Below are positions 11,237-44,308 of a stretch of 64,000 nt of DNA, piece after piece. A program made the position numbers and the translations under genes. The notes beneath the pieces are model-generated. The model made no database searches and had not been told where the DNA came from. It saw only the letters and a program-made list of their open reading frames with translations. Source of the DNA: Escherichia phage BME3; sequence record PP239276.1. One strand, 5' to 3'. Within the stretch, counting starts at the first letter, position 1; the number at the start of each line of letters is the position of its first letter.

Positions 11237-11271
11237 CCATTTTTTTAATCTTTTTTTCATTTCTTTTTTGC

Positions 11272-22312: not shown

Positions 22313-22789
22313 ATGTCTAAACGTTTTGGTCGTAATCAAAAAAGAAAGTTAAATGCGCAACTAGCAGCTTTGCAAAAAGAGGTTAACACTTTACAAAAAA
22401 GTGTTTGTGAACTTAAGGAACAAAACCAACTTGAAAAAGAGTGTATTCAGCTTACACAGGAAGTTATTGGGGAGTATTTCCCTTCACTAATTCCTAAGAA
22501 GGTGGCTCTTAGGGAAAATCTACCTTTTACCTTATCCTTGATGCAAACAAGGGATAGATTCCAAACTGAAACTGATGATTTGATGTTTGCAATGCATCAA
22601 TTACGTGGTTTAGAATATACAGCACAAGTGGATAAACTTCGTAACATGCTATATGTGCGGGTAGAAACACCTAAAGGTGAGACAGTAGCGTTTAATTATA
22701 ATTTCCAACAGCTACCTGATCATATTATTGAACAAATTTTAAAACGAGATTTTGTTCCTATGCTTGTTAAACAAATTAAGAGAGGTTGA
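22313..22789 (+). CDS. hypothetical protein with coiled-coil N-terminus (158 aa)
   Basis: ORF track. Confidence 0.6.
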   Translation: MSKRFGRNQKRKLNAQLAALQKEVNTLQKSVCELKEQNQLEKECIQLTQEVIGEYFPSLIPKKVALRENLPFTLSLMQTRDRFQTETDDLMFAMHQLRGLEYTAQVDKLRNMLYVRVETPKGETVAFNYNFQQLPDHIIEQILKRDFVPMLVKQIKRG

Positions 22790-22790
22790 A

Positions 22791-30356: not shown

Positions 30357-30548
30357 ATGGATCATTATTTTGTTTTTAAAGATAAAGTTGATACCGCAGG
30401 TGGTCACGTTGCTAAAAATGATCGTGACATTAAAGAAGTATTAGGAGATCTGATTAACATTTTAGAACAAAAAGAGTTGCTTTTAGATAAGGATATTGCT
30501 AGACTTCTTGGTGTGGGGATAAGTGACATACAAAGATTACCATTCTAA
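30357..30548 (+). CDS. small putative HTH protein
   Basis: ORF track trimmed to MDHYFVF; C-terminal DKDIARLLGVGISDIQRL looks HTH-like. Confidence 0.4.
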   Translation: MDHYFVFKDKVDTAGGHVAKNDRDIKEVLGDLINILEQKELLLDKDIARLLGVGISDIQRLPF

Positions 30549-30559
30549 AGGGGAAGAAA

Positions 30560-30715
30560 ATGCTTACAGATGATGAATATAAAGCTATCCAAGAAAAACT
30601 AACGGAGCTTGAAATTCTTGCTGTCAATATTAAAGATCAATCACATGCTGGAAAGTTACTACATCAAGAGATCAATAAAATTAAGCAGATGATATTCTTT
30701 TGGACGGAGGATTAA
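30560..30715 (+). CDS. possible 51-aa protein
   Basis: Hand-translated; RBS aaagggg. Confidence 0.3.
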   Translation: MLTDDEYKAIQEKLTELEILAVNIKDQSHAGKLLHQEINKIKQMIFFWTED

Positions 30716-30717
30716 AA

Positions 30718-31374
30718 ATGACTGTTAAGCATATTTCTTTTGATGTATGGAATACTCTTATTACTGCTAATCCTTTGTATGCAGAAGAACGCAACAAGGT
30801 TATTGCCGAGTATGCCTCTTGTTCTGAGGTAGAAGCAGCTACCGTATATAAAGAGGTAAAAACTCTCCTGGATTTAAAAGCAGAAAAAGGCATTTGTGGA
30901 ACATCTAGAAATGCTTGGGAAACACTTTCTGCTCATTTGAACATTGATCTTGATAAGGTGGATGGGTTAAAAAGAGATTGTTTGGCAATGTTTATAAAAC
31001 ATCCTCCAACGTTGAATCCTGAACTTTGCAAGAAGTTGGAAGAGCTAAGTTCAACCTACTCTTTGAGTATTAAAAGCAATACCAATTTTGTACCTGGCAG
31101 TTTCTTAGCTGTATATTCTGGCTTGACAAAATTACCATTCGATTTTATGCATTTTTCTGATGAGTTTTGCTTGTGTAAACCAGATCCCAGGTTTTTTAAA
31201 CTCTCTTTTGATGAAATGGTAACGTTTGATCTCGCACCAGAGGAGATTTTACACGTTGGAGATAGTTTGATCTATGATGGAAAAGCTGTTGACATAGGGA
31301 TGAAGTTCTGTCATATTATTAATCCAGAAGACTTGTTGGCTAAACTTAAAAAAGAGGAACTTATTAATGCGTAA
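30718..31374 (+). CDS. HAD-superfamily phosphatase
   Basis: N-terminal ISFDVWNTLI matches HAD motif I (DxDxT-type); start trimmed to ATG 30718. Confidence 0.6.
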   Translation: MTVKHISFDVWNTLITANPLYAEERNKVIAEYASCSEVEAATVYKEVKTLLDLKAEKGICGTSRNAWETLSAHLNIDLDKVDGLKRDCLAMFIKHPPTLNPELCKKLEELSSTYSLSIKSNTNFVPGSFLAVYSGLTKLPFDFMHFSDEFCLCKPDPRFFKLSFDEMVTFDLAPEEILHVGDSLIYDGKAVDIGMKFCHIINPEDLLAKLKKEELINA

Positions 31375-32224
31375 TCAAATTCAACATTTTGCTAATACTT
31401 TTACTAACCTGAAGGAAGCAAAATTTAACATTGCAGATTATTCCAAACTGAAGTTTGGTAGTAACCAGGCAGCAAAAAGAATGGGGCGCATTTTGGCTGA
31501 AAGTTTCTTTTCCAAGTATGAAGAACGACTGGTAAATGAAAGTTTTGTTGTTATTCCATCTCCATATAACTATGTGAAAAATGCAGCTACAATGTTATCT
31601 GAACATTTTGCAGATCACCTCAACTACCTAATCTCTATCAAAGGAGGTAAAGCAGTGGAGTGGGATATCGTTCATCGTAAAGTGAGCTATATCAATGATT
31701 ATGGATTTCTTAGCAAAGAAGATCGTAAGGCTTTGATCGATGGTGACACTTTCTCTATCAACCGTGATTTCTGGAGTAATAAAACTCTGATTTTCATTGA
31801 TGATGTTAATATTACAGGAACGCACGAAGAAAAACTTATTGAAATTTTAGACAAAGAAGGTGTTGAAAACGATACGTTTTTCCTGTACTTTGCAAAGTAT
31901 GAAGGTACAGAAGCCAATACCGAAGCTGCACTTAACTTCAACTATATCAATAATCTGGCAGCTTTTATTAAAATGATTAAGCAAGAAACTGATGCTAAAT
32001 GTTTGGTTCGTCCTATTAAGTATCTAATGAGTCAAAGCGAAGTTGATTTTAAAATTGCACTTTCACAACTTCCTTTGTATTATGTAGAACAACTGTTCTT
32101 TGGTTGCCTTGCAGAAGGTTACAATAACATTGAAAAATACAAAGAGAACTTTGATTTCCTACGTCAATTTTTTGAAAGCAATATTATCGACAAATCTAAT
32201 GTTAAAGGGGATTATTATGTCTAA
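31367..32224 (+). CDS. type I phosphoribosyltransferase (PRTase)
   Basis: PRPP-binding motif TLIFIDDVNITGTHEE. Confidence 0.6.
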   Translation: MRNQIQHFANTFTNLKEAKFNIADYSKLKFGSNQAAKRMGRILAESFFSKYEERLVNESFVVIPSPYNYVKNAATMLSEHFADHLNYLISIKGGKAVEWDIVHRKVSYINDYGFLSKEDRKALIDGDTFSINRDFWSNKTLIFIDDVNITGTHEEKLIEILDKEGVENDTFFLYFAKYEGTEANTEAALNFNYINNLAAFIKMIKQETDAKCLVRPIKYLMSQSEVDFKIALSQLPLYYVEQLFFGCLAEGYNNIEKYKENFDFLRQFFESNIIDKSNVKGDYYV

Positions 32225-32933
32225 TAAAGTAATGACTTTCGGAGATCCTATTACCAATATTACAGAAAAAGATTTTGGGCGCGTAGCAACAGATAAAGAT
32301 GGTGTCTTAAGAATTCGTGTACAAGGCATTACAGCACAGGATGAATATGCTGTGTATGTTTCAGGTCTTAACTATATTGATGATCGCATTACACAAAACT
32401 TTGCACTGATCGGTGGTGTAGAGAAAATGTACTGGGAAGATGAAATTGTAACAAGTTATCCAGCAGGTATCATTGAGGTATACGGTGATCTTTTAGCAGC
32501 AGCCGAGAGAGGCGATATAGACGCTATAGCACACTGCTGTAACTGTTTTTGCACTATGGGTAGTGGTATTGCACCAAAAATTAAAAGCAAGTGGCCTGGT
32601 GCGTTTAAAGCAGATTGTGCCACTACACGTGGTGATTATAAAAAATTAGGTACGTTTACCAAATATACAGAAAACAATTTGACAATTTATAATTTATATG
32701 GACAATATGGTTATAGTCGTCGTGAGGAAGGTAAGCGTGACCTGAATTATGAAGCTATCTACAATGCGCTAGATAGTATGGGAGACGATGTTGTATCTTC
32801 AGGCGGTAAAATTGTAGGTTTACCAATGCTTGGTTGTGGTTTGGCTGGAGGTTCTTGGAATATTGTAAAACTTATGATCGAAGAAACTCTAGTAAACAAA
32901 GGTTTAAATGTAATTGTTTACAAACTGAAATAA
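32217..32933 (+). CDS. macro-domain protein (putative ADP-ribose binding/hydrolase)
   Basis: GDIDAIAHCCNCFCTMGSGIA and GLPMLGCGLAGGSW resemble the two macro-domain glycine-rich motifs; start trimmed to ATG 32217. Confidence 0.5.
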   Translation: MSNKVMTFGDPITNITEKDFGRVATDKDGVLRIRVQGITAQDEYAVYVSGLNYIDDRITQNFALIGGVEKMYWEDEIVTSYPAGIIEVYGDLLAAAERGDIDAIAHCCNCFCTMGSGIAPKIKSKWPGAFKADCATTRGDYKKLGTFTKYTENNLTIYNLYGQYGYSRREEGKRDLNYEAIYNALDSMGDDVVSSGGKIVGLPMLGCGLAGGSWNIVKLMIEETLVNKGLNVIVYKLK

Positions 32934-32942
32934 GGAGAAAGT

Positions 32943-33149
32943 ATGGCAGGTGTTTTAGCAGTATTAGGTTGTTTTATTGTTGTGTTCTTGATTGTGTTAA
33001 TCCCTAGTTGGCTACTGCTTTTAGCATACAACTATATGATTGACATTATCGGCTTAGACTGGCATCATGTTCCTGTAACGTTTTGGAGTGTAGTCTGTGT
33101 GACGTTCATTCTTGCGGTACTCCGTGGTATCTTTCAATCTAACAAATAA
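32943..33149 (+). CDS. small membrane protein (68 aa)
   Basis: ORF track; two hydrophobic helices. Confidence 0.5.
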   Translation: MAGVLAVLGCFIVVFLIVLIPSWLLLLAYNYMIDIIGLDWHHVPVTFWSVVCVTFILAVLRGIFQSNK

Positions 33150-33163
33150 GAGAGGATCTTTAT

Positions 33164-33412
33164 ATGCGTAAAGTAAATGTTGAAGTGCTTGAAAAATTTA
33201 TAAACACCCGTGATTGTACTATCGGCAAGGTTTACGAGGCTATTCTCATTGAAGATGGGGATGAAGTTCCTGCCCCGTATCATGCCTTTAACGGTCAGGT
33301 TAGCAAAGTGGAAGGTGGTCTTGCTATTTGCTTTATTGATGATGTAGGTGATGCTGTAGCTTTCCCTATCATTAACAAAGAAGATAAACTTAAAATTACA
33401 GAACTGAACTAG
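33164..33412 (+). CDS. hypothetical protein (82 aa)
   Basis: ORF track. Confidence 0.5.
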   Translation: MRKVNVEVLEKFINTRDCTIGKVYEAILIEDGDEVPAPYHAFNGQVSKVEGGLAICFIDDVGDAVAFPIINKEDKLKITELN

Positions 33413-33489
33413 TTGACTTTCTTTAAAAACAGTTTATAGTATAAGACATAGAGCGGAGGATTGTCCTCCGCATTAAAGAGGAGAAAAGA

Positions 33490-34467
33490 ATGCAACTGGG
33501 TTTCCCAATTATTGATGTGGTTGTTTTAGTGGGTATTTTAGTGTTGTCGATTTGTATTGATTTCTTTGGACACAGAGAAAACAAAGAAATTTCATTTAAA
33601 TCTGCAATTGGTTGGTCAATTTTCTGGATTGGGGTATCATTAGCCTACTATGGTTTTGTATACTTCCAACACGGTGCTGATTTTGCGAGCTTGTTTTTGA
33701 GTGGGTATGTGTTGGAGAAATCTCTTTCTGTAGATAACTTAGTAGTATTTGTGGCAGTATTCGCAAGTTTTGGTATTAAAAGCACACACTTGCAACACAA
33801 GATTCTACTTTGGGGTATTGCAGGTGCGATTGTCTTCCGAGGTGTGTTTGTAGCAGTAGGCACTTACTTGTTGAGTTTGGGCTGGTATGTTAATATCTTC
33901 TTCGGTGCGGTCATCCTTTTCTGTGCAGCTAAAATGGTATTCGCTGGAGATAATGACGCAGAAGTTGATTACTCTAAACACTGGGCTACTCGCATTGTTC
34001 GTAAACTGTTCCCTGTATCTGATCAGATGGATGGCGAGAAGTTCTTCACAATCAAAAATGGTGTTCGTGTAGCAACTCCGGCTCTGGTTTGTGTGTTTGT
34101 AATGGAAATGGTTGACGTAATCTTTGCAGTAGACTCTGTTCCAGCAGTAATTGCAGTGACACAAGAACCTCTGCTTGTATTTTCTTCAATGCTGTGTGCA
34201 ATTTTAGGTTTACGTGCTCTGTTCTTTGTCCTTAGTGTTGCACTGAAATATTTGGTTCATCTGGAGAAAGCAGTTATCGTAGTCCTGGTATTTGTGGGTG
34301 TAAAACTGATGTATCACCCGTTTGCAGAAACTCTGCACGCAAAAGTGAGTTTCCTGCCAGCACACATTGATCCGACGATCAGTATGTATATTGTGTTAGG
34401 TACTCTGGGGCTGGGTGTTATTGCAAGTTTAATCTTCCCTGAAAAAGAAGACCAAGCTGTTGCTTAA
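33490..34467 (+). CDS. terC: TerC-family integral membrane protein
   Basis: Signature EKSLSVDNLVVF and multiple TM helices. Confidence 0.8.
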   Translation: MQLGFPIIDVVVLVGILVLSICIDFFGHRENKEISFKSAIGWSIFWIGVSLAYYGFVYFQHGADFASLFLSGYVLEKSLSVDNLVVFVAVFASFGIKSTHLQHKILLWGIAGAIVFRGVFVAVGTYLLSLGWYVNIFFGAVILFCAAKMVFAGDNDAEVDYSKHWATRIVRKLFPVSDQMDGEKFFTIKNGVRVATPALVCVFVMEMVDVIFAVDSVPAVIAVTQEPLLVFSSMLCAILGLRALFFVLSVALKYLVHLEKAVIVVLVFVGVKLMYHPFAETLHAKVSFLPAHIDPTISMYIVLGTLGLGVIASLIFPEKEDQAVA

Positions 34468-34473
34468 TTCATT

Positions 34474-34495
34474 AAGCCCCTTCGGGGGCTTTGTT
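34474..34495 (+). terminator. hairpin aagcccc-ttcg-ggggctt after terC
   Basis: GC stem with tetraloop; weak T-tract. Confidence 0.45.
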
Positions 34496-34506
34496 GAGGT
34501 GATCTG

Positions 34507-34713
34507 ATGGTGGTTTTACGTGTTCTTTGGATTCTGTTTGAAAATATTTGTTTTGCTCTAGGGTTGTTTTGTTTGATTTTTATCTTGACAACATATATTG
34601 ATAACCATACAATTACTATCAACAGGAACGGAGAACAGATGTATTGTTTCTCTAGGGATTTTAAAAATTGTGTTGAGACTTTAAATGAGAGGGTTACAAA
34701 TGAAAAACATTAA
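34507..34713 (+). CDS. small membrane protein (68 aa)
   Basis: ORF track. Confidence 0.4.
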   Translation: MVVLRVLWILFENICFALGLFCLIFILTTYIDNHTITINRNGEQMYCFSRDFKNCVETLNERVTNEKH

Positions 34714-35290
34714 ATCTTTTATTGTTGCAGTTGTTTTAGGTAGTGCATTGTTGGTAGGTTGTGATGATTCTGAAAATGTACAAAACCAACGTTACCAACA
34801 AACACCAAATCAGATGGTAGATGAACAATATGTAAATCAACCTGCACCTCAAGTTGTTCAAGCAGCACCTGCACAACCTTCAACAGTTGTTGTGCAAGGA
34901 GGCGGTAGTGGTTCTTCTGGCGTAGGTGAGTTTGCTACAGGTATGCTTCTTGGTCATATGTTGAGTGGTAATAGTGGCGGTGGTGGTTATAGGGATGGTG
35001 GTAGCAGCACAACAATTATTAATAACAACGCTGCTCCTACAACTAACAATAAAGCATATACAACACAAAAGCATAGTTTTTATGATAAACAAGGAAATAC
35101 ATATACAACCACTAAACAAAACACAATTAAGCAGCAAAGTGTACAAACGTATTCACGCCCATCAACAACAAAAGTGAATAGTGATTACTCTGCTCGTAAG
35201 TCTTACTCAAGTCCTATTAGCTCTTATAGTAAGTCTTCGAAAAGTTATTCTTCGTCGAAACGTAGTTTTAGTAGCTCACGTCGTCGTTAA
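34700..35290 (+). CDS. lipoprotein with Ser/Tyr-rich C-terminal low-complexity tail
   Basis: MKNIKSFIVAVVLGSALLVGC lipobox; tail SYSSPISSYSKSSKSYSSSKRSFSSSRRR; start trimmed to 34700. Confidence 0.6.
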   Translation: MKNIKSFIVAVVLGSALLVGCDDSENVQNQRYQQTPNQMVDEQYVNQPAPQVVQAAPAQPSTVVVQGGGSGSSGVGEFATGMLLGHMLSGNSGGGGYRDGGSSTTIINNNAAPTTNNKAYTTQKHSFYDKQGNTYTTTKQNTIKQQSVQTYSRPSTTKVNSDYSARKSYSSPISSYSKSSKSYSSSKRSFSSSRRR

Positions 35291-35325
35291 TAATTTAATA
35301 CAGATTAAACAAGAAGGAGAAACAG

Positions 35326-36177
35326 ATGAAACTAGAAGTTGGTAAAGTGTATCGCCTGGAAGGTTGGATCTTTAATCAAGAAATTCTTGAGAAGAATAAA
35401 GATGGTTTTGAGTTTGTTGGTACTACCCAGGAAAGTATGCACGATGATGAATACTGTAAATTCGTTGGTAAAAATACAGGTCAAGAACAATTTTGCTTTA
35501 AGAGCGCAATCGGTGATTATGCTTCTGTAATGCCAACACCAGAAAAAACTCCGAAGCAATATACTGTCTTTGGTGTAAAACTTGAAGAACTTGTAGAACA
35601 CCCACGTTTTGAAGAGTTCAAGGTTGCTGCAATGTGCAAGCATTCTGAAATTAAAATACATAATTTGTTTGATTTAGAAGATCGGTTTGATATCTTTATG
35701 TATGATCGCAGGGAAAAGCATTTTGATGCAACGACTTCAAAATTTGCTGCAACAGAGGATATTAAAATTCTTGATGTTGATACCTTTCTTCAGAATGTAT
35801 CGTTTGTATTCATTCCTAAGTACAAAAAACGTAGTGATCATAAACGTGTGAAAGGAACTCCTCGTAAGAAACGTACTGTAAACAAAGCAACTTTGCACTT
35901 CACTTCTGGTGATAAGTATACTCTCAAAGGGTTTGAAAGTGTTTTGTATGATGCTGGAACGGGTAATATCAAGTTTATCATTAAGGCAACCTACAAAGGT
36001 ACGGTATTACACGAAGAGGCTGTTACACTACCTGTATTCGATATCTCTCGTGTTGAGGTACGGGGTGTTAAAGAGTCCTTCGATCTGGATTTCTTAACCA
36101 CTAATGCTACTGGTTATGTTAATCTGGAAGCAGATGGGGCGTTTATTACTACAAATTATTTAGATATGTTTGTTTAA
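35326..36177 (+). CDS. hypothetical protein (283 aa)
   Basis: ORF track. Confidence 0.6.
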   Translation: MKLEVGKVYRLEGWIFNQEILEKNKDGFEFVGTTQESMHDDEYCKFVGKNTGQEQFCFKSAIGDYASVMPTPEKTPKQYTVFGVKLEELVEHPRFEEFKVAAMCKHSEIKIHNLFDLEDRFDIFMYDRREKHFDATTSKFAATEDIKILDVDTFLQNVSFVFIPKYKKRSDHKRVKGTPRKKRTVNKATLHFTSGDKYTLKGFESVLYDAGTGNIKFIIKATYKGTVLHEEAVTLPVFDISRVEVRGVKESFDLDFLTTNATGYVNLEADGAFITTNYLDMFV

Positions 36178-36245
36178 TACTTAATTTGTGTTATGATGGT
36201 GGTACAGAGGTATCACCATCTACTAAAGAATATGGAGGAAATTGA

Positions 36246-37349
36246 ATGTCCAGTCCTTTTATCAGTGCCGTAAAAAGCAAACCGTCTGAAATGAGTGTAT
36301 TCACGGCAACAACAGAAAAAAGTAAGTCTTTGTTTGCTCCAAGTGCTATGGATGCAAGCCCTGTATATGCACCTGCTGTTGCACGACCTGTACAAATGCT
36401 GCCTCCAATGTCTCGTGAAGAGATTGAACAGGTTGGTGCTGATGCAGGACTTACTCTTCGTAACCTTAATGCTGAAGTGCTTAAACACCAGCGTTCATCT
36501 CAGGGAGATGAAATGAGTGAACGTTTAACTGCACTTATTAAGCAAGCAAAGCAACTTGATCCTAATTCTATTAAACAATCTAAAGGTTTAGGTAAGTTAG
36601 TTAAGAAAGTATTAGGTATGAAAGAAGATTTGTTTGGAGAATTTGACACCATCAATAATCGTATTGAAGGTTTGGTAAAGACACTCCAAACAGACTTGAA
36701 AAAAGAAGAAGATTCTTTACGATATCTGCAACGTTTAGAAGAGGCTATTGCAAAATATGCTCTTAGCTTAAACAGAGATATAGAGCTTCTAACAGCTACG
36801 TATGAAAAAGAAGAAGTTCGCCTTAATACACTACCTGAAAATGAAGTAGAAGAGCGTCAACGTACTCGTGATACTATGGATCTGCTTGAAATTCGTATTG
36901 CAGACCTGAAAGCATTACGTTTACTCTGTGTTCAGATGGGGCCACGTGTACAAAGTATGCAGAAAGTATCTGCAAGTTTGATGCGATCAGCACGTAACAT
37001 TGTGAATAATGTTATCCCTGCTTACTCTGCAAACTTTTCTATGTATATTGAAAGTCTACGCCAGAAGAAAGCAGCCGATACACAGAACAATGTACTGAAT
37101 GAATTTAATGCTGCTATTGCAATGGGTAGTGATCTGGCTGCACAAAACCAAATTGAAGCTACACAACTTGCTAATCGTCAAGTATTGGATATTGAAACAC
37201 TACGTCGCGATCAAGAAAACTTAGTTAAAATGTTGGAAGAAACTAACCGAATCAACACTGAAGCCCGTGCTGCTCGTATTGATTACATCCAAGAAGTGCA
37301 ATCTCTTGAAGATGGTATGATTCAAACTGTTAAACGTGGTCTACTTTAA
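36246..37349 (+). CDS. TelA-like toxic-anion-resistance family protein (tentative)
   Basis: 367 aa, long alpha-helical/coiled-coil; size and Ter context fit TelA/KlaB; motif support weak. Confidence 0.4.
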   Translation: MSSPFISAVKSKPSEMSVFTATTEKSKSLFAPSAMDASPVYAPAVARPVQMLPPMSREEIEQVGADAGLTLRNLNAEVLKHQRSSQGDEMSERLTALIKQAKQLDPNSIKQSKGLGKLVKKVLGMKEDLFGEFDTINNRIEGLVKTLQTDLKKEEDSLRYLQRLEEAIAKYALSLNRDIELLTATYEKEEVRLNTLPENEVEERQRTRDTMDLLEIRIADLKALRLLCVQMGPRVQSMQKVSASLMRSARNIVNNVIPAYSANFSMYIESLRQKKAADTQNNVLNEFNAAIAMGSDLAAQNQIEATQLANRQVLDIETLRRDQENLVKMLEETNRINTEARAARIDYIQEVQSLEDGMIQTVKRGLL

Positions 37350-37362
37350 GGAGAAATATATT

Positions 37363-37569
37363 ATGAATATTAAAATTTACAAACTGTCTGGTTCTATGAT
37401 TGCTGTCCAGTACGACAATGAAGATCGTTATGTTCTCCTCCAGGATGCTTGGTTAGATGATCCTAATGTATTCACTGTCCTGCGAGAACTACGTTCTGTC
37501 TATACCTATTCTTCTAAAGATGGTTTTGATAGTTCAACGATGGAATTGGTAAAAGAGGAGAATGTGTAA
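37363..37569 (+). CDS. hypothetical small protein
   Basis: ORF track trimmed to ATG 37363 with RBS aggaga. Confidence 0.5.
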   Translation: MNIKIYKLSGSMIAVQYDNEDRYVLLQDAWLDDPNVFTVLRELRSVYTYSSKDGFDSSTMELVKEENV

Positions 37570-37769
37570 TGAGTAAAGATATTCACTTAACTCGTGAAGA
37601 GTTACAAACCATTATGGAAGATGCTTTCATTGATGGTTGGAAACAAGGTCAAGAGTCAGATTGGTATGATGCCGAAGATTTTTTGTATTATCATATGACT
37701 GCACCTGTAGACGAGCAAACACACTCTGAAACAACTTTGGCTTTAATTGATCTTAAGGCTGGTGTATAA
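37569..37769 (+). CDS. hypothetical small acidic protein
   Basis: ORF track; ATGA coupling. Confidence 0.5.
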   Translation: MSKDIHLTREELQTIMEDAFIDGWKQGQESDWYDAEDFLYYHMTAPVDEQTHSETTLALIDLKAGV

Positions 37770-38332
37770 TGGGGTGTTTTAGTTTCTTGTGCAAAGAGTC
37801 TGGTAATGCTGCTCTTTCTACCTCTTTCGATGGCTCTCCTTGCTACCTATTTCTTTTGAAAGGTGGTAAAGTTGTTGAAGAGATGTATGGCAATTATGAT
37901 AGCTATGGTAGTGTTTTCTCTAACGAAGAAGATAAACATGGCAATCGTAAAAGATTCAAGTGGTCTATGCCTTGGGAAGAAGTTTGTAATTTGATGTTCT
38001 CTTCCGATCCTGGGGATGGTATCGCTATGATATTAGAAGAGCACTTTACAGGTGAGATCCCAACAGAAAGATCTGAAGAAGACCCTAACCAGGGCTGGGG
38101 TGATGGAGAAGAAGATCCAGATTGCTTCTTCAGTATTGAAAATAATAAATTTAAACGTGTTGACAATCCTTACCACAAAGTGCATAATACTTGCATTGAG
38201 ACAGAAGAAGACTCAAAGCTAGAAATTGAAGATGATTTAGTTGTAACTATCTCTTTAAACGAGTTACAAAAGATCACCAGAGAGGCTTTCTACTTAGGCT
38301 TGAGAGCAGGTAAAGGAGAAGACAGTGCTTAA
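37769..38332 (+). CDS. hypothetical acidic protein (187 aa)
   Basis: ORF track. Confidence 0.55.
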   Translation: MGCFSFLCKESGNAALSTSFDGSPCYLFLLKGGKVVEEMYGNYDSYGSVFSNEEDKHGNRKRFKWSMPWEEVCNLMFSSDPGDGIAMILEEHFTGEIPTERSEEDPNQGWGDGEEDPDCFFSIENNKFKRVDNPYHKVHNTCIETEEDSKLEIEDDLVVTISLNELQKITREAFYLGLRAGKGEDSA

Positions 38333-38594
38333 ATTTAATATCAAAGACGACAAATCAGATGAACCTAAATGTTTTGGAGAACTTGACGCAGGTGATACAT
38401 TCGTATATTATGTTGCCTATCAAGATGCTGGTTTAGATACGTTCAGAAACTTAGTGTTTATTAAGATTAATACAAACCAAGCAATGTGTCTGAACGGTTC
38501 ACAAAGAGGTCAACTTAACTGTATCTTATATGATACAGAAGTGGTAGAAGTGGATTTAGAAGTTACTAACATTACAGTCAGAAAGGAGAAATAA
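38325..38594 (+). CDS. hypothetical protein (GTG start)
   Basis: ORF track; RBS aggaga 5 nt upstream of GTG. Confidence 0.45.
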   Translation: MLKFNIKDDKSDEPKCFGELDAGDTFVYYVAYQDAGLDTFRNLVFIKINTNQAMCLNGSQRGQLNCILYDTEVVEVDLEVTNITVRKEK

Positions 38595-38595
38595 T

Positions 38596-39390
38596 ATGTC
38601 CAATAAAATCAGTCTTAAAAAACGTCAAGAAACTCTTACTGTATCTCTGCGTAAGAAAAAGATTAACGATGTTGTTCTTCGTGTCGGTAGCGCCTTAGAT
38701 ATTTCGGGCAGTATGTGTGAACTGTATCGTGATGGCACTGTTAGTGATTTTGTAGGTAAACTGCTGCCGTTTGGTATGAAGTTTGATGATAATGCACAGA
38801 TTGACATGTGGGCTTTCAATAGTTCTTCTTTTGAACTGCCTCCTGCAACGGCTGATGTGTATGATGATTATGTCGGCTCTTGCATGTCTAATGTTTGCAT
38901 CAACGGTGGTACAGCCTATGCTCCAGTAATGCAAGAGATCTATGATACATACTTCGGTAGTGTACCTATGAAAAATATTACACGCGAAGTCGTTGAGTAT
39001 GAAGAAGTTCCGGCTAAAGGTTTCCTTGCTAAACTAACTGGTAAAAAAGAACTTGTAGAAGTAACACGTACTATTGTAGAACAGGTTGTAGATACTGATG
39101 CACAAGTTGATCGTACTCCTGCAATGATTTTCTTCCAAACTGATGGGGAGAACATGGATACTTCAGCAGTACGTAGCTTACTGAACAAACACCGCAACAC
39201 GCCTGTTTACTGGTTTATGGTCGGTGTAGGTAATGCAAACTTTAAATTCCTGAAAGACTTGGCAAAAGAATACGATAATGTTGATTTTATCGGTATTGCA
39301 GATTTGTCCTTGTCTGATGAAGAACTTTACGATAAACTGTTATCCGAAGAGTTTGGTGAGTGGGTTAAAAAATTCGGAGCAAAAGCGTAA
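38596..39390 (+). CDS. von Willebrand factor A (vWA) protein, TerY-like
   Basis: MIDAS residues DISGSM ... TAY ... QTDGEN; N-terminus ISLKK resembles TerD N-terminus. Confidence 0.7.
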   Translation: MSNKISLKKRQETLTVSLRKKKINDVVLRVGSALDISGSMCELYRDGTVSDFVGKLLPFGMKFDDNAQIDMWAFNSSSFELPPATADVYDDYVGSCMSNVCINGGTAYAPVMQEIYDTYFGSVPMKNITREVVEYEEVPAKGFLAKLTGKKELVEVTRTIVEQVVDTDAQVDRTPAMIFFQTDGENMDTSAVRSLLNKHRNTPVYWFMVGVGNANFKFLKDLAKEYDNVDFIGIADLSLSDEELYDKLLSEEFGEWVKKFGAKA

Positions 39391-39462
39391 AAAACGCTTG
39401 ACTTTGTAGAAAAGATTAGTAAAATAGACAACGTAAATTAACAACAAAGGAGATAATAAATT

Positions 39463-40059
39463 ATGACTCAGAAAATTTCCCTGAAAAAAGGTTCTAGCGA
39501 AAAAATTTCTCTGAAAAAGATCGCACCAGCACTGAAACGCATTCGCCTGGAATTCTCTTGGAAATCTAACGAAAAACTGGATCTGGATGTTAGTGCTCTG
39601 ATTTGCCGACACAATGCATCTGGTCTGCCGGAACTGTTGTCTCCTCGTCACCTGGTGTGCTACGCGCAGAAATTTGATCCTGAACGTTCTACTTTTGCAG
39701 GTGAAGATGTTCGTGATGGTGTAGGGCAGATGGAACAGATTGATGTTACACTGGATAATATCTCTGCTGAAGCACAGGAAATTGCATTCGTAATTACTAT
39801 TGATGATGAAACGGGTAAGAAACGCCTTGGTCACGCTACCGAAGGTTTCCTTAAAATCTTCGATGATGAACGTAATGTTGAACTGCTGGACTTTGACTTC
39901 TTGGCCCCAGAACTTGCAGGTAACACCATTTGCCACGTTGCCTCCCTGGTGCGGGAAGATAGCGAATGGAAACTGAAAGCATATGGTGTAGGTAAAGCTG
40001 GGCTTGACATTTACGATGTAGTTAAAGCGTTTGGCGCTGGCGACGATTGGTTCGAGTAA
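39463..40059 (+). CDS. terD: TerD-domain protein
   Basis: Matches E. coli TerD across length: ISLKK, DLDVSALIC, AGEDVRDG, IAFVITIDD, SEWKLKAYGVG. Confidence 0.85.
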   Translation: MTQKISLKKGSSEKISLKKIAPALKRIRLEFSWKSNEKLDLDVSALICRHNASGLPELLSPRHLVCYAQKFDPERSTFAGEDVRDGVGQMEQIDVTLDNISAEAQEIAFVITIDDETGKKRLGHATEGFLKIFDDERNVELLDFDFLAPELAGNTICHVASLVREDSEWKLKAYGVGKAGLDIYDVVKAFGAGDDWFE

Positions 40060-40079
40060 TAAGTCAAGTAATAAATCAT

Positions 40080-40100
40080 AGCGCCCTTCGGGGCGCATAT
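40080..40100 (+). terminator. hairpin agcgccc-ttcg-gggcgc after terD
   Basis: GC stem; A/T-rich tail. Confidence 0.45.
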
Positions 40101-40123
40101 TTAAAATAAAAGAGGAGAAAACA

Positions 40124-40726
40124 ATGAGTATTACTTTAGAAGGTCAAAAACTTATTCGCAGCGGCAATTTTCTTGTAGATATTGACAACAATGAAGATTA
40201 TGCTTTAGAAGTTAGTGATGTGCTGTTTGATGCTTTGCAGTCTGGTTTCAATTTTGAAGTTTATGAAGTAATCCGTGGAACTAAACTCAGAGAAACCCTT
40301 GGATCATCTAGTGATGTTTATTCGGCAATCTGGCAATATTTCGGGTTAATGGATGGTAAGACATATCTTACTGATAGTTATTCTGAAGATGTTGTTTATC
40401 TTGATATGGAAGAGTTTCGTCGTCTGTTCAAAAGTGAAGAAAATGAAGAAGAGGGTGAACTTTTTGAAGGAATTACTCTCGAAGGTAATGTTGAAATTGT
40501 GTATAAAGCAGGAAAAACATTCCACTTACGTGAAAACGGTAAAGCAAAAGTTGATTTTGTAAACAAGACAGTGACAACTGAACATAATTATCTTAAAGAT
40601 GGTCAACCAGCTTTTGAACGTGTAAAAATTAAATTTAAAGTGTTATCTGCACTAGTCACGGATCAAGAACGTATTGATTTTGTAGAAGATGGTGTAGTAA
40701 CTCATACAAAGGTTTACAATATCTAA
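40124..40726 (+). CDS. hypothetical protein (200 aa)
   Basis: ORF track; RBS agaggag. Confidence 0.6.
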   Translation: MSITLEGQKLIRSGNFLVDIDNNEDYALEVSDVLFDALQSGFNFEVYEVIRGTKLRETLGSSSDVYSAIWQYFGLMDGKTYLTDSYSEDVVYLDMEEFRRLFKSEENEEEGELFEGITLEGNVEIVYKAGKTFHLRENGKAKVDFVNKTVTTEHNYLKDGQPAFERVKIKFKVLSALVTDQERIDFVEDGVVTHTKVYNI

Positions 40727-40818: not shown

Positions 40819-41328
40819 TTGTCAATAAAAACCTTTGTCGCAATTGCGTTACTATCCTTAACTGCTTTTACATTTACACCTGTTGTGGCGCAAGCCGAAG
40901 CTGCAAACGTAAAAACTGCTAAAGTAGTTCACAAGTGTACAAAGCGTGATAGTAAAGAAAATCTATTAGCTTGTGCAATCTATGCAGAAAGTCGTAATCA
41001 AGGAAAGCGCGGTATGTCTGCTGTTGGTAATGTAGTATTGAACAGGGCAAGAGATTCATATTTCCCTGATACTATAAAAGAAGTTTTGTTTCAAAAAGGA
41101 CAATTCTCTTACACGAAGACATTCAACGTTATGGAACACGATAAGTGGAAGGAAGCTAAGGCTATAGCAGAACGTCTACTTTATCTCGAAAACCATTTTC
41201 CAGAATTACGAATTGCATTAGATATTACAAAAGGAGCATTATACTTTAAAAAATCTACAATAAAAGCACACTGGGAAAAAGATATGGTTCTAGTGTACCG
41301 CTACAAAGAACATCAATTCTATCGCTAA
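40819..41328 (+). CDS. SleB/CwlJ-like cell-wall hydrolase with signal peptide
   Basis: AIYAESRNQG...VVLNRARDSYFPDTIKEVLFQKGQFS matches Hydrolase_2 pattern; TTG start after RBS aggagg. Confidence 0.7.
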   Translation: MSIKTFVAIALLSLTAFTFTPVVAQAEAANVKTAKVVHKCTKRDSKENLLACAIYAESRNQGKRGMSAVGNVVLNRARDSYFPDTIKEVLFQKGQFSYTKTFNVMEHDKWKEAKAIAERLLYLENHFPELRIALDITKGALYFKKSTIKAHWEKDMVLVYRYKEHQFYR

Positions 41329-42076: not shown

Positions 42077-42640
42077 ATGATATTTCACATAACTCCCTAT
42101 CTTTCTGGAGATATTGGAAAAGGTATCAATGACACAATAAGTGTCTTACCAGAAGATAGTTGGATTTGCCTAAGAGACATTGATACAATGTTTCTTCTTC
42201 CAGAACAACCTGCTTGGTTGGAATCAATAGTCCGTTCAAATCCTGATTTTGATGTTCTTGGTGCATCTTGTAATAGGTTGGGATCAACATATCAATTATT
42301 TAATAATGAAAGAAGTGAAGATCCAAATATATTACACCACATTGAGATTGCAAAAAGAGCACATCTAGAATGGGGGAACTCAATAGAGGAAGTACCTACA
42401 GATGCTATCTTAGCAGGATTCTTTCTTCTCTTTCGTAAGAGTCTGTGGAATGAAATCCCTTTTGAGGAAAGATCAATACAGTTTGATATAATTTTCTCTA
42501 AAGCATTACACGCTAACAATAAAAGGCTAGGTTTACTACGTGGGTTATATTTATTTCACACATACCGTTTAGGTAATGATGATCCTAGAAAAGCTGTTTC
42601 ACACCTTTTACATTGTCAAGACATGAATAAAATTATTTAA
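42077..42640 (+). CDS. putative GT-A-fold glycosyltransferase-like protein
   Basis: RDID (DxD-like) near N-terminus; weak. Confidence 0.35.
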   Translation: MIFHITPYLSGDIGKGINDTISVLPEDSWICLRDIDTMFLLPEQPAWLESIVRSNPDFDVLGASCNRLGSTYQLFNNERSEDPNILHHIEIAKRAHLEWGNSIEEVPTDAILAGFFLLFRKSLWNEIPFEERSIQFDIIFSKALHANNKRLGLLRGLYLFHTYRLGNDDPRKAVSHLLHCQDMNKII

Positions 42641-42649
42641 GGAGTTATT

Positions 42650-43336
42650 TTGGAAAATACAAAAATTGGTGTTGGTGTTATTACTGTAGGTAAGCGTCCT
42701 CTTAAAGATTATCTTGTGACTGATCCTAATGCTACTTTTGTTGTACAGTATGATCGGGAACGAAAAGGTGTTGCATATGCCCGTAATGAACTGATGAAAA
42801 AGTTTTATGATGAAGGGTATGATTACTGGTTTATCTTTGATGATGATTGCTATCCGGTTGTGCCAGGTTGGGAAACATATTTTGTAAAACAGGCTAAGGA
42901 AAATGGCTGGGATTTCTTTGGTATGCCTGAATACTTTAAAGATAAAGTAAAAGGTATTGAAGGTGAAGTGGTTATTTGGGAACTAGGCATGTGCCAGTTT
43001 GGTATGTATTCCCGTGCAGTTATTGAGAAAGCTGGCTATTTCCGTTCATACACCCACGGTTACGGATATGAAGATGCAGAGTGGATTCAGCGTGTTCCAC
43101 TGGCAGGTTTGAACCGAGGTATTCACGGCGTACCATGTCCTATTCGAATTATGGCGTTTATCCATCCTGACGATGTGTTTGGAGATAATCCTTTACCTTT
43201 TGCGAATCTGTCAAAAGAAGAGAAAGAACAGGGGATTGGTGTAAACTGGGAACAATATAAACAATCACTGGAGGATCTTCGCAATGGTAAAACTTTTATC
43301 TCTTATGAGGAGGCTCAAAAATATGGTAAATCCTAA
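42650..43336 (+). CDS. putative GT-A-fold glycosyltransferase
   Basis: WFIFDDDCYP DxD motif after a predicted Rossmann-like N-terminus. Confidence 0.5.
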   Translation: MENTKIGVGVITVGKRPLKDYLVTDPNATFVVQYDRERKGVAYARNELMKKFYDEGYDYWFIFDDDCYPVVPGWETYFVKQAKENGWDFFGMPEYFKDKVKGIEGEVVIWELGMCQFGMYSRAVIEKAGYFRSYTHGYGYEDAEWIQRVPLAGLNRGIHGVPCPIRIMAFIHPDDVFGDNPLPFANLSKEEKEQGIGVNWEQYKQSLEDLRNGKTFISYEEAQKYGKS

Positions 43337-44297
43337 TACTCCTGTACTTAAGTGTGATAATAAGTTAGGCAGTGGTTGTGATTACCATCGTATTGTAATG
43401 CCATTTGCGGGAAATACGTTTAAGCCTAAGAAAGACGTTTTAGTTTTTAATAGAGTGTATTCTCGTGGATCAGACGAAGTTAAACGCCTGAAGGCACAAG
43501 GTGTTAAGATTATTGTAGACTTAGATGATTTTTATTCACTTAACCCTGAACATTATATGGCTGGCGTATTTAGTAATCACTCAAAGACTATTGTAGAGAT
43601 GATTAAGTTAGCAGATGTTGTTACTGTGACAACAGAATACCTAGCTTACAAAATTCGTCATTTAAACCGTAATGTTGTCGTTATTAGAAACGCACTGCCT
43701 TACGACGAAGGTCAATTTACTTTGACAAAAGACCGTTATTCTGACACGCCTATTATTTGGGCTGGAGGGGCGAGCCATGAGCCTGACTTATCTCTTGTGG
43801 CTAATACATTTGATGATACACTATTGACAATTGCAGGGTATGAAGTGTATCCTTCTGCACCTGTTGGAAATAATAGTCAGTATCTAACTACTGCGGAGTG
43901 GGTTAAAGTCAAACGTAAAATTCCAAATGCACAGTATAAACCAGCTATTAAAAATTTAGGTGAGTATATGTCTGTGTATGACGGTCACAGTATTGCAATT
44001 GCTCCTCTGGTAGATAACGACTTCAACAACTGTAAAAGTAATTTGAAGATTTTGGAAGCAGGTGCAAAGGGTCTTCCTATTATCTGTTCTCCTGTGCTGC
44101 CGTACTTCAATCCGGTAGATGCAAAGGCTGTTATCTATGCAGATTCTAAAGCATCTTGGCATTATGAAGTTGTCAAGCTAATGAGGAACCCTAGATACAC
44201 AGAAGATCGTGGTATGATGCTTGCAGAACACGTTCGTCTTAATTATAATCTTGCAGATGCCAATGAACTGCGTCGTCAAGTTATTGAAAGTCTTTAA
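43323..44297 (+). CDS. putative GT-B-fold glycosyltransferase (paralog 1)
   Basis: C-terminal KSNLKILEAGAKGLPIICSP sugar-nucleotide-binding-like motif; collinear with 44309..45253. Confidence 0.45.
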   Translation: MVNPNTPVLKCDNKLGSGCDYHRIVMPFAGNTFKPKKDVLVFNRVYSRGSDEVKRLKAQGVKIIVDLDDFYSLNPEHYMAGVFSNHSKTIVEMIKLADVVTVTTEYLAYKIRHLNRNVVVIRNALPYDEGQFTLTKDRYSDTPIIWAGGASHEPDLSLVANTFDDTLLTIAGYEVYPSAPVGNNSQYLTTAEWVKVKRKIPNAQYKPAIKNLGEYMSVYDGHSIAIAPLVDNDFNNCKSNLKILEAGAKGLPIICSPVLPYFNPVDAKAVIYADSKASWHYEVVKLMRNPRYTEDRGMMLAEHVRLNYNLADANELRRQVIESL

Positions 44298-44308
44298 TAA
44301 GGAGCGAT

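What the first reader, a model, noticed from the sequence alone, without database searches (positions are those of the whole stretch)
30357..40726. Phage-borne Ter-like module: HAD, PRTase and macro domain linked to TerC, TelA-like, vWA and TerD
A contiguous plus-strand run encodes a HAD phosphatase (ISFDVWNTLI), a type I PRTase (LIFIDDVNITGTHEE), a macro-domain protein, TerC (EKSLSVDNLVVF), a lipoprotein, a TelA-like coiled-coil protein, a vWA protein (DISGSM MIDAS) and a TerD protein that aligns with E. coli TerD along its length. Ter clusters are known as bacterial stress/tellurite-resistance and phage-inhibition loci, and comparative genomics has linked them to a PRTase/HAD module predicted to make a nucleoside-like metabolite. 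Seeing this whole combination inside a virulent-phage replication region is unexpected and suggests the phage deploys a Ter-type membrane/metabolite system, perhaps for superinfection exclusion, abortive-infection evasion or nucleotide hypermodification. The intervening unknown genes (35326..36177, 37363..38594, 40124..40726) may be uncharacterised components.
Basis: partly seen in the sequence, partly recalled or inferred. Interest (0 to 1): 0.8.

Follow-up and report, generated by a model that had tools for sequence, protein, structure and literature searches.

The report
Ter stress-gene block in coliphage
A lytic E. coli phage of the phi92 group carries a cut-down copy of the bacterial Ter membrane-stress system plus a two-enzyme pair predicted to make a nucleoside-like metabolite; the gene calls are right, but this block is already sequenced, annotated and discussed in the literature, and its function is still untested.

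Summary
**Observation:** confirmed. Pfam recovers every call: HAD, PRTase_3, Macro, TerC, TelA, vWA-TerF-like and TerD.

**Source:** the window is a Justusliebigvirus (phi92-like, Stephanstirmvirinae). It is about 98% identical to more than 50 deposited genomes, many already annotated with these names.

**Prior work:** Iyer et al. 2021 described phage-borne Ter systems with PRTase and HAD, and proposed superinfection exclusion. The "unexpected" framing is therefore overstated.

**What belongs to the module**
- Core Ter set: TerC, TelA, vWA and TerD. It recurs in other phage lineages, in different gene orders.
- HAD–PRTase_3 pair: HAD lies directly upstream of PRTase_3 in all 43 loci examined. 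The pair travels with Ter genes in phages and in two Bacteroidetes MAGs, but stands alone in rhizobia.

**What does not belong**
- The macro domain is a widespread phage gene (2,905 records, including T4 Tk.4).
- The unknown ORFs are lineage-restricted.

**Mechanism:**
- Most likely an early-expressed, inner-membrane Ter module for superinfection exclusion or envelope protection. This is inferred, not shown.
- DNA hypermodification is unlikely, because phi92-like phages are exceptionally sensitive to restriction.

**Verdict:** already known; modest interest.

The parts
30357..30548 (+). small ORF (63 aa from the ATG at 30357), unknown function
   Evidence: Conserved in Justusliebigvirus and Phapecoctavirus relatives only. 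No Pfam match above threshold.
30560..30715 (+). small ORF (51 aa), unknown function
   Evidence: Found only in the closest relatives.
30718..31374 (+). HAD-superfamily hydrolase with motif I D-x-W-x-T; obligate partner of PRTase_3
   Evidence: Pfam PF00702, 5e-6. Weak NCBIfam matches to subfamily IA. Motifs I-IV are conserved, with Trp at Asp+2 in all 18 lineage representatives. It lies directly upstream of PRTase_3 in 43/43 loci and overlaps the PRTase start by 8 nt.
31367..32224 (+). type I phosphoribosyltransferase, PRTase_3 (ComF-like) family
   Evidence: Pfam PF15610, 3.7e-41. The PRPP loop DDVxITGTHE is invariant. AF2 model pLDDT 92.1. The nearest solved folds are HGXPRT, ComF, PyrR and UPRT at TM 0.3-0.5.
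32217..32933 (+). macrodomain protein (SCO6735/BT1257/TARG1 clade) with an N-terminal extension of about 85 aa; adjacent to the Ter module but not part of it (start may be 32199)
   Evidence: Pfam Macro, 2.3e-7. Best PDB matches are 5e3b, 2fg1 and TARG1. DarG profile scores 50 bits, far below its cut-off. Homologues occur in 2,905 phage records.
32943..33149 (+). small membrane protein with two hydrophobic segments
   Evidence: Restricted to the subfamily. PHROG of unknown function.
33164..33412 (+). small ORF (82 aa), unknown function
33413..33440 (+). sigma-70-like promoter (TTGACT-16-TATAGT) in the gap before terC, followed by a hairpin at 33453-33471
   Evidence: phAPEC8 annotates a host-dependent promoter at the equivalent site. 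This is a consensus match only.
33490..34467 (+). TerC/Alx-family polytopic inner-membrane protein
   Evidence: Pfam TerC, 1.2e-38. TIGR03718, 322.8 bits against a cut-off of 246.4. 46-47% identical to plasmid terC. Both acidic motifs are conserved. No riboswitch upstream.
34507..34713 (+). small single-pass membrane ORF (68 aa)
34700..35290 (+). predicted inner-membrane lipoprotein, low-complexity, lineage-restricted
   Evidence: Lipobox LLVG-C with Asp at +2, read from the sequence. No Pfam match. PHROG of unknown function. Found only in related phages.
35326..36177 (+). unknown 283-aa protein, lineage-restricted
   Evidence: No Pfam match. phrog_27504, unknown function. Only the C-terminal part is shared with Phapecoctavirus. 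No hhalign relation to Ter families.
36246..37349 (+). TelA (toxic anion resistance) family protein, soluble and all-helical
   Evidence: Pfam PF05816, 5.1e-34. No hydrophobic segment. The AF2 model shows long helical hairpins but with low confidence, pLDDT 55.
37336..38594 (+). four small or unknown ORFs (37336..37569, 37569..37769, 37769..38332, 38325..38594)
   Evidence: No Pfam match. PHROGs of unknown function. The 187-aa ORF is 75% conserved in phAPEC8 but deleted in locus L010.
38596..39390 (+). vWA-TerF-like protein with an intact MIDAS
   Evidence: Pfam PF10138, 1.5e-38. DxSGS, GGT and TDG are conserved across 11 phage lineages.
39398..39425 (+). sigma-70-like promoter (TTGACT-16-TAAAAT) before terD
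   Evidence: This is a consensus match only.
39463..40059 (+). TerD-domain protein; the second Ca2+-binding motif is degenerate in this lineage
   Evidence: Pfam PF02342, 4.8e-28. Aligns to 2KXT and 3IBZ over residues 5-180. DLDVS is kept, but GDNxTGxGxGDDE is replaced by AGEDVRDGVGQMEQ.
40081..40096 (.). G+C-rich palindromic hairpin (GCGCCCTTCGGGGCGC) after terD
40124..40726 (+). unknown 200-aa protein, lineage-restricted
   Evidence: No Pfam match. phrog_22473, unknown function. Absent from phAPEC8. Not related to TerD by hhalign.
40819..41328 (+). neighbouring exported SleB-like cell-wall hydrolase, kept near the Ter genes across the subfamily
   Evidence: Pfam Hydrolase_2, 2.9e-20. N-terminal hydrophobic signal-like segment. 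Lies near the Ter genes in phAPEC8, KP13-16 and L017.

Best explanation
The region is a phage-adapted, abbreviated Ter system. It belongs to the core genome of phi92-like (Justusliebigvirus) and phAPEC8-like phages.

**Two conserved units**
1. A membrane-proximal set: polytopic TerC, and soluble TelA, a vWA protein with an intact MIDAS, and one TerD.
2. A translationally coupled HAD-PRTase_3 pair. The PRTase is predicted to join a base-like nucleophile to PRPP, and the HAD to process the product into a nucleoside-like metabolite.

**Likely function**
The genes sit behind host-type promoters, so they are probably made early. The most likely role is to alter the state of the inner membrane and envelope of the infected cell. 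This would block later-arriving phages (and pore-forming toxins) and keep the envelope intact until lysis. That is the function Iyer et al. proposed for phage Ter systems.

**What is not part of it**
The macrodomain gene and the interspersed unknown ORFs are neighbours, not Ter components.

**Shown:** gene identities, conservation and co-occurrence.
**Inferred:** expression timing, the metabolite, and the exclusion or protection phenotype.
For: **Identities:**

**Core status in the genus:** the Ter block matches 121 records with 53 full-length, against 121 with 54 for the flanking replication block.

**Recurrence:** the same families recur in different orders.
- KP13-16.
- Metagenomic phage contigs L008, L014, L017, L019, L021 and L025.
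- Every reference phage lineage with PRTase_3 also has TerD somewhere in its genome.

**HAD-PRTase pair:** HAD lies directly upstream of PRTase_3 in 43/43 loci. The two genes overlap by 8 nt.

**Expression:** sigma-70-like promoters sit in the gaps before terC and terD. phAPEC8 annotates a host-dependent promoter before terC.

**Envelope bias of the neighbourhood:** 2-TM and 1-TM small proteins, an inner-membrane-type lipoprotein, and an exported SleB-like hydrolase.

**Published model:** PMC7824862 describes Ter components and superinfection exclusion. As cited in PMC9796965 and PMC8386662, bacterial ter loci give phage inhibition and colicin resistance.
Against: - No experiment on any phage Ter gene was found in the searched literature.
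- The set lacks TerB and the multiple TerD paralogues of the classical terZABCDEF operon.
- The TerD of this lineage has lost several acidic residues of the Ca2+-binding motif.
- The HAD lacks the Asp+2 general acid of HAD phosphatases, so the step "phosphatase makes a nucleoside" is uncertain.
- The HAD-PRTase pair occurs without Ter genes in rhizobia, and more than 10 kb from them in several phages. It may therefore act independently.
- Promoter matches are no more frequent than in shuffled sequence: 51 found against 43.9 ± 7 expected.
Confidence: 0.5

Rival explanations
1. Ion and envelope homeostasis for the phage's own benefit, not exclusion. TerC/Alx would export Mn2+ or another cation to the periplasm. 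TerD, vWA and TelA would buffer divalent cations or membrane stress. This would keep the infected cell energised, or supply metal to exported phage enzymes such as the neighbouring SleB-like hydrolase.
For: - The TerC protein passes the TerC/Alx 'metal homeostasis membrane protein' model.
- Both acidic transport motifs are conserved.
- The vWA MIDAS metal site is intact.
- An exported hydrolase stays near the Ter genes across the subfamily.
- A Klebsiella study links terC to zinc resistance (PMC12054061, title).
- From my own knowledge, not checked here: Bacillus TerC proteins are reported to metalate exoenzymes, and E. coli Alx to export Mn2+.
Against: - No Mn2+ riboswitch lies upstream.
- It does not explain the HAD-PRTase pair.
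- The TerD Ca2+ motif is degraded in this lineage.
- No direct data exist.
Confidence: 0.22
2. The HAD-PRTase_3 pair is an independent counter-defence or metabolic cassette. It could salvage or rebuild nucleotides, or destroy or mimic a nucleotide-type immune signal. On this view it sits beside Ter genes only because accessory genes cluster together. The macrodomain would act separately, against ADP-ribose-based immunity.
For: - The pair is self-contained: it stands alone in 12 rhizobial loci and in several phages with no Ter gene within 10 kb.
- In KP13-16 it is separated from the Ter genes by other genes.
- The macrodomain belongs to a family spread over 2,905 phage genomes.
- Iyer et al. 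treat phage Macro domains as degraders of ADP-ribose signals.
- PRTase-type enzymes figure in defence systems, for example ShosT and the Retron-Eco11 effector (titles and abstracts).
Against: - Every reference phage lineage with the pair also encodes TerD.
- In six independent phage lineages and two Bacteroidetes MAGs the pair lies within a few kb of TerD, TerC or DUF475. That is more than loose clustering would give.
- No PADLOC match.
Confidence: 0.18
3. The module makes a modified nucleotide for hypermodification of phage DNA.
For: It includes a PRTase and a HAD hydrolase, and it lies in the replication and nucleotide-metabolism block.
Against: - phi92-like phages and their relatives are 'exceptionally susceptible' to RM systems (PMC8594841).
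- The block contains no DNA-modifying transferase.
- The pair also sits on rhizobial plasmids.
Confidence: 0.03
4. The genes are an auxiliary tellurite or xenobiotic resistance trait given to the host, or a fortuitous run of unrelated genes.
For: Relatives annotate the genes as tellurite resistance. Iyer et al. mention possible xenobiotic resistance.
Against: - The phage is lytic. The set lacks TerB and the multiple TerD paralogues of the classical ter operon; the phiPsa374 authors make the same incompleteness argument for their phage.
- Chance is excluded by conservation across lineages.
Confidence: 0.04

Closest known systems
Phage-borne Ter systems described by Iyer, Anantharaman, Krishnan, Burroughs and Aravind 2021 (jumbo phages; Acinetobacter phage vB_AbaM_ME3, Caulobacter jumbo phages)
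   Same: The families are the same: TerC, TerD, TelA, TerF-type vWA, and PRTase plus HAD. They are carried by lytic tailed phages. The functional hypothesis is the same, superinfection exclusion. ME3 and the Caulobacter phages appear in my own searches.
   Different: This host is a 145-150 kb non-jumbo myovirus of E. coli, which that paper does not name. The paper describes the Caulobacter operons as lacking the biosynthetic genes, whereas I find the HAD-PRTase_3 pair elsewhere in those genomes.
Ter gene sets noted in phage genome papers: phiPsa374 (terC, terD, terF, telA) and Klebsiella phiKp34
   Same: Both have the subset TerC + TerD + vWA (TerF C-terminus) + TelA in virulent phages. phiKp34 (FBKp34) TerC is 69% identical to the window's.
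   Different: phiPsa374-like phages have no PRTase_3 hit. Those papers leave the function open.
Bacterial terZABCDEF operon of IncHI2 plasmids, E. coli O157 and Klebsiella
   Same: TerC is 46-47% identical over its full length. TerD has the same fold family. The vWA is of the TerF type.
   Different: - The window has one TerD instead of several paralogues (TerZ, A, D, E, F).
- It has no TerB.
- The PRTase_3 subfamily does not hit ter plasmids at E < 1e-3.
- The TerD Ca2+ motif is degenerate.
Bacillus subtilis yceCDEFGH envelope-stress operon (TerD paralogues, TerC-family YceF, TelA-family YceH); comparison from my own knowledge
   Same: Both combine TerD, TerC and TelA. Several phage annotations call the TerD gene yceD or 'general stress protein 16U'.
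   Different: The yce operon has no vWA and no HAD-PRTase, and it is chromosomal and stress-regulated. The window's TerC matches the YkoY-type model (the nearest TerC-family model in NCBIfam) only weakly (72 bits against a cut-off of 138.5).
SCO6735 / BT1257 / TARG1 (OARD1) macrodomains and phage T4 Tk.4
   Same: These are the best sequence matches of the window's macrodomain.
   Different: An N-terminal extension of about 85 aa is found only in Justusliebigvirus. The TARG1 residues K84 and D125 (numbering from memory) align to Q and A, as in SCO6735 and BT1257. The protein lacks the DarT-binding domain of DarG.

Membership tests
Ter system (sensu Anantharaman/Iyer/Aravind) | TerD-domain protein | tested here: met
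   PF02342, 4.8e-28. Aligns end to end with the solved TerD structures 2KXT and 3IBZ.
Ter system (sensu Anantharaman/Iyer/Aravind) | TerC membrane protein | tested here: met
   PF03741, 1.2e-38. TIGR03718 above its cut-off. 46-47% identical to plasmid terC.
Ter system (sensu Anantharaman/Iyer/Aravind) | TelA and a TerF-type vWA protein | tested here: met
   PF05816, 5.1e-34, and PF10138, 1.5e-38. MIDAS is conserved.
Ter system (sensu Anantharaman/Iyer/Aravind) | Linked PRTase + HAD biosynthetic genes | tested here: met
   PF15610 and PF00702. The two genes are adjacent in 43/43 loci and repeatedly lie next to TerD, TerC or DUF475.
Ter system (sensu Anantharaman/Iyer/Aravind) | TerB domain protein (frequent but not universal component) | tested here: not met
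   No TerB match for any of the 20 ORFs scanned against Pfam.
Ter system (sensu Anantharaman/Iyer/Aravind) | Phenotypes: tellurite resistance, phage inhibition, colicin resistance | not testable with these tools
   Needs wet-lab assays. No report for phage copies was found.
Classical terZABCDEF operon | Several TerD paralogues plus TerB and TerC in one operon | tested here: not met
   The window has a single TerD and no TerB. The ORF after terD is not TerD-like by hhalign.
TerY-P anti-phage defence system (vWA + PP2C phosphatase + Ser/Thr kinase) | Match to PADLOC models; kinase and phosphatase partners | tested here: not met
   The vWA protein and its neighbours have no PADLOC match. No kinase or PP2C domain was found.
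Type I phosphoribosyltransferase | PRPP-binding loop and PRT fold | tested here: met
   DDVxITGTHE is invariant in 54 sequences. AF2 model pLDDT 92.1. Foldseek matches to HGXPRT, ComF, PyrR and UPRT at E down to 4e-7.
Type I phosphoribosyltransferase | Known acceptor substrate | tested here: inconclusive
   Fold matches are only at fold level (TM 0.3-0.5). An extra C-terminal helical domain is present. No sequence relative has a solved structure.
HAD phosphatase | Motif I DxDxT (nucleophile Asp and Asp+2 general acid) | tested here: not met
   The nucleophile Asp is present, but Asp+2 is Trp in all 18 lineages.
HAD phosphatase | Motifs II (S/T), III (K) and IV (GDxxxD) | tested here: met
   SN(T/S)NF, KP and H(V/I)GDxxxxD are conserved.
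DarG / TARG1-type ADP-ribosyl hydrolase | Macro fold of this clade | tested here: met
   Best profile matches are DarG (50 bits) and the PDB entries SCO6735, BT1257 and TARG1.
DarG / TARG1-type ADP-ribosyl hydrolase | Catalytic Lys (and Asp) of TARG1/DarG; DarT-binding C-terminal domain | tested here: not met
   The aligned positions are Q and A (residue numbers from memory). DarG equivalog score is 50 against a cut-off of 250, and only the macro part matches.
Alx/TerC genes under the yybP-ykoY Mn2+ riboswitch | Riboswitch in the 5' leader | tested here: not met
   No Rfam family reaches its gathering score anywhere in the window.

The most novel reading that the evidence does not exclude
The HAD-PRTase_3 pair is a self-contained, mainly phage-borne two-enzyme cassette. 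Its HAD partner has Trp in place of the general-acid Asp in every lineage. The cassette would make a so-far unidentified ribosylated small molecule. In phages this molecule would be the ligand or trigger that switches the TerD/TerC/TelA/vWA membrane module. In rhizobial replicons the same cassette would serve another purpose. Identifying the product would give the first chemical handle on the long-unexplained Ter system.
Probability: 0.2. Interest if true: 0.65.

Novelty: already known. Interest (0 to 1): 0.3.

Why it matters
Ter loci are widespread in bacteria, plasmids and phages. They have been linked for decades to tellurite resistance, phage inhibition and colicin resistance, without a mechanism.

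A compact, core-genome version in easily handled E. coli phages (phi92, and BASEL Bas60-62) is a convenient experimental entry point. It has one TerD, one TerC, TelA, a vWA protein and a strictly paired HAD-PRTase.

The finding itself adds nothing new in kind. These genes are already annotated in dozens of near-identical genomes, and the idea of phage Ter systems for superinfection exclusion is published.

Tried and rejected
- **Unknown ORFs as hidden Ter components.** Tested 35326..36177, 37336..38594, 40124..40726 and the lipoprotein. They have no Pfam match and only small PHROGs of unknown function. hhalign gives no relation to the TerD, TelA, vWA or HAD profiles, all probabilities below 5%. 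They are absent from KP13-16, L008 and other lineages. One marginal hit of the 200-aa ORF in L017 (8.7e-5 in a tiny database) was judged insufficient.
- **Macro as part of the module.** Rejected.
- **Mn2+ riboswitch before terC.** None found.
- **TelA structure.** The AF2 model was too poor (pLDDT 55), so no fold search was run on it. No solved relative exists by sequence.
- **Substrate of PRTase_3 from structure.** Only fold-level matches. No solved sequence relative.
- **Anantharaman et al. 2012 (PMC4104200).** Could not be read because it is not held. Its content is cited only through Iyer et al. 2021.
- **PADLOC.** Only the macrodomain matches, to DarG.
- **Technical note.** Early Python calls wrongly suggested that loci were missing. 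The files hold several records each.

Full report
**1. What the window is.**
- The 10.4-kb region matches 121 phage records by megablast. Of these, 53 cover it end to end at 97.6-98.1% identity. Examples are vB_EcoM_AMO3598, ECGD1, muut, phi92 relatives, and BASEL phage JohannJBalmer (Bas62).
- The Bas62 record places the window in Stephanstirmvirinae, genus Justusliebigvirus. The block lies between the anaerobic ribonucleotide reductase genes (NrdD/NrdG) and a set of glycosyltransferases followed by the primase/helicase.
- The window is therefore a known lytic E. coli myovirus of about 146 kb.

**2.
- Pfam recovers every assignment above its gathering score:

| Protein | Pfam family | E-value |
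|---|---|---|
| HAD | PF00702 | 5e-6 |
| PRTase_3 (ComF-like) | PF15610 | 3.7e-41 |
| Macro | PF01661 | 2.3e-7 |
| TerC | PF03741 | 1.2e-38 |
| TelA | PF05816 | 5.1e-34 |
| vWA-TerF-like | PF10138 | 1.5e-38 |
| TerD | PF02342 | 4.8e-28 |

- TerD aligns with the solved Klebsiella TerD over residues 5-180.
- TerC passes NCBIfam's TerC/Alx model. It is 46-47% identical to plasmid terC of classical ter operons. Both acidic motifs are conserved in phage homologues.
- The vWA MIDAS (DxSGS, GGT, TDG) is intact in 11 phage lineages.
- The PRPP loop DDVxITGTHE is invariant in 54 homologues.
- An AlphaFold model of the PRTase is confident (pLDDT 92.1). It matches type I PRTases (HGXPRT, ComF, PyrR, UPRT), but only at fold level, and it has an extra C-terminal helical domain.
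- TelA, vWA and TerD have no hydrophobic segments. TerC is polytopic. The neighbourhood also encodes a 2-TM and a 1-TM small protein, a lipoprotein with Asp at +2, and an exported SleB-like hydrolase.

**3. What belongs together.**
- I compared the window with four annotated phage loci, one metagenomic contig, 18 IMG/VR loci and 15 genome loci that encode a PRTase_3 relative. Profiles were built iteratively from the window's proteins.
- **The HAD-PRTase pair is invariant.** The HAD gene lies directly upstream of PRTase_3 in 43 of 43 loci. In the window the two genes overlap by 8 nt. This is an obligate two-gene unit.
- **Ter genes recur near the pair.**
  - TerC (or the related DUF475), TerD, vWA and TelA lie within 10 kb of the pair in all Stephanstirmvirinae.
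  - They also do so in six other phage lineages (L008, L014, L017, L019, L021, L025) and in two Bacteroidetes MAG contigs. Gene orders differ.
- **Genome-level link in other phages.** In Caulobacter, Brevundimonas and Rhizobium phages the pair is more than 10 kb from Ter genes, but those genomes do carry TerD elsewhere.
- **The reverse link does not hold.**
  - phiPsa374-like, Proteus, Cronobacter, Vibrio and Bacillus phages have TerD or TerC without PRTase_3.
  - In rhizobia the pair stands alone: 12 loci, including plasmid pRL10.
- **The PRTase_3 subfamily is rare in bacteria.** In 100,044 species genomes, the two diagnostic peptide patterns found it in only 15 loci. It is mostly a phage family.
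- **The block is core in this genus.** It is as conserved as the flanking replication genes.

**4. What does not belong.**
- **The macrodomain.**
  - Its family occurs in 2,905 phage records, including T4-like Tk.4, Felix O1-like and Pakpunavirus phages that lack Ter.
  - It is absent next to the pair in KP13-16, L008 and most other lineages.
  - It is closest to SCO6735, BT1257 and TARG1. The DarG profile matches only the macro part, at 50 bits against a cut-off of 250.
  - The two TARG1 catalytic positions align to Q and A.
  - Only Justusliebigvirus has the N-terminal extension of about 85 aa.
- **The unknown ORFs.**
  - They are lineage-restricted PHROGs of unknown function.
  - They have no profile relation to Ter families.
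  - They vary between genera. One is deleted in a 99%-identical genome.

**5. Prior knowledge.**
- Deposited relatives already carry names such as "tellurite resistance protein", "membrane bound tellurium resistance protein", "phosphoribosyltransferase", "HAD", "vWA domain protein" and "putative macrodomain protein".
- Iyer et al. 2021 describe Ter systems in phages, including PRTase and HAD enzymes. They extend the point to "certain other related smaller tailed phages" and propose superinfection exclusion.
- phiPsa374 and phiKp34 papers report terC/terD/terF/telA sets in virulent phages.
- I found no experimental test of any phage Ter gene.

**6. Mechanism.**
- **Best-supported reading:** an early-expressed, abbreviated Ter module acting at the inner membrane, with a coupled HAD-PRTase pair that makes a small ribosylated molecule. 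Its purpose would be exclusion of rival phages or toxins, or protection of the envelope.
- **Support is indirect:**
  - the conserved co-occurrence;
  - host-type promoter matches in the gaps before terC and terD, with an annotated counterpart in phAPEC8;
  - the envelope bias of the neighbourhood;
  - the phenotypes cited for bacterial ter loci.
- **Weak points:**
  - there is no TerB;
  - there is only one TerD, whose second Ca2+ motif is degenerate in this lineage but canonical in other phage TerDs;
  - the HAD has Trp at the Asp+2 general-acid position in all 18 lineages, so it may not be an ordinary phosphatase;
  - the TelA model was too poor to interpret.
- **Rivals:**
  - metal or envelope homeostasis through TerC/Alx;
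  - an independent counter-defence or metabolic role for the pair;
  - DNA hypermodification, which is unlikely because phi92-like phages are exceptionally restriction-sensitive;
  - a host resistance trait, or chance.

**7. Verdict.**
- The feature is real and conserved but already known in kind and in this very phage group. Interest is modest.
- The only mildly new points are:
  - the strict HAD-PRTase_3 pairing;
  - the D-x-W-x-T HAD;
  - the phage-centred distribution of the pair, with Ter-less rhizobial copies;
  - the exclusion of the macrodomain and the ORFans from the module.

Noticed in passing
window 1900-11250, minus strand: There is a dense series of about 25 strong sigma-70-like promoters (TTGACA, 16-17 nt, TAnnnT). 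Many are preceded by an A-rich stretch such as AAAAAATAAT. They sit in a block of small minus-strand ORFs and look like the host-polymerase early region of the phage.
   Followed up: no
window 30718-31374; loci L002-L042: The HAD partner of PRTase_3 has motif I D-x-W-x-T in all 18 lineage representatives. Trp replaces the Asp+2 general acid of HAD phosphatases, while motifs II-IV are kept. The chemistry of this enzyme may differ from a plain phosphatase.
   Followed up: partly
window 39463-40059: The TerD of Justusliebigvirus, Phapecoctavirus and close relatives (e.g. L013) has lost several acidic residues of the Ca2+-binding motif: AGEDVRDGVGQMEQ in place of GDNxTGxGxGDDE. TerDs of most other phage lineages keep the canonical motif.
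   Followed up: partly
L014:8192-9190, L019:7749-8771, L025:8272-9297: In three phage lineages a DUF475 protein lies directly upstream of the HAD-PRTase pair, apparently taking TerC's place. DUF475 is a TerC-related membrane family.
   Followed up: partly
L004:2801-4051, L019:686-1834, L025:1645-2868: An RNA ligase (PHA02142 OB-fold plus RNA_ligase domain) lies near the Ter genes in three separate phage lineages. This may be coincidence or a real link.
   Followed up: no
window 33490-34467 versus phage records: TerC is 94-95% identical to the window in some Phapecoctavirus genomes (Mt1B1_P17, tuntematon, vB_EcoM_REC) but only about 71% identical in others (phAPEC8, ESCO5). The PRTase of the first group is about 65% identical. 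This suggests gene exchange between the two genera within the block.
   Followed up: no
records MG065639, MG065645, MG065656, MG065689, MG065650: Records labelled 'Campylobacter phage' with host C. jejuni are about 97.6% identical to these E. coli phages. The host label looks doubtful.
   Followed up: no
L009 / L037 (Rhizobium johnstonii 3841 plasmid pRL10) and 11 other rhizobial loci: The HAD-PRTase_3 pair occurs on rhizobial plasmids and contigs at about 40% identity, with no Ter gene within 10 kb.
   Followed up: partly
L010:16406-16490: A 99%-identical IMG/VR genome lacks the 187-aa ORF that lies between TelA and vWA in the window (37769..38332).
   Followed up: no
window 42077-45253: Directly downstream lie four genes annotated in Bas62 as glycosyltransferases and disaccharide synthases. 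The BASEL paper mentions a putative dTDP glycosylation machinery in phi92-like phages; whether that refers to these genes was not checked. Together with the SleB-like hydrolase, they make this stretch look envelope-directed.
   Followed up: no
window 22752-24527: The UvrD-type helicase ORF here is 591 aa. The Bas62 homologue is annotated as an intein-containing precursor of 2,775 nt. The window's phage may lack that intein.
   Followed up: no
window 39340-40098, minus strand: A 252-aa ORF runs antisense across the whole of terD. It is most likely a shadow ORF, and it is not annotated in relatives.
   Followed up: no
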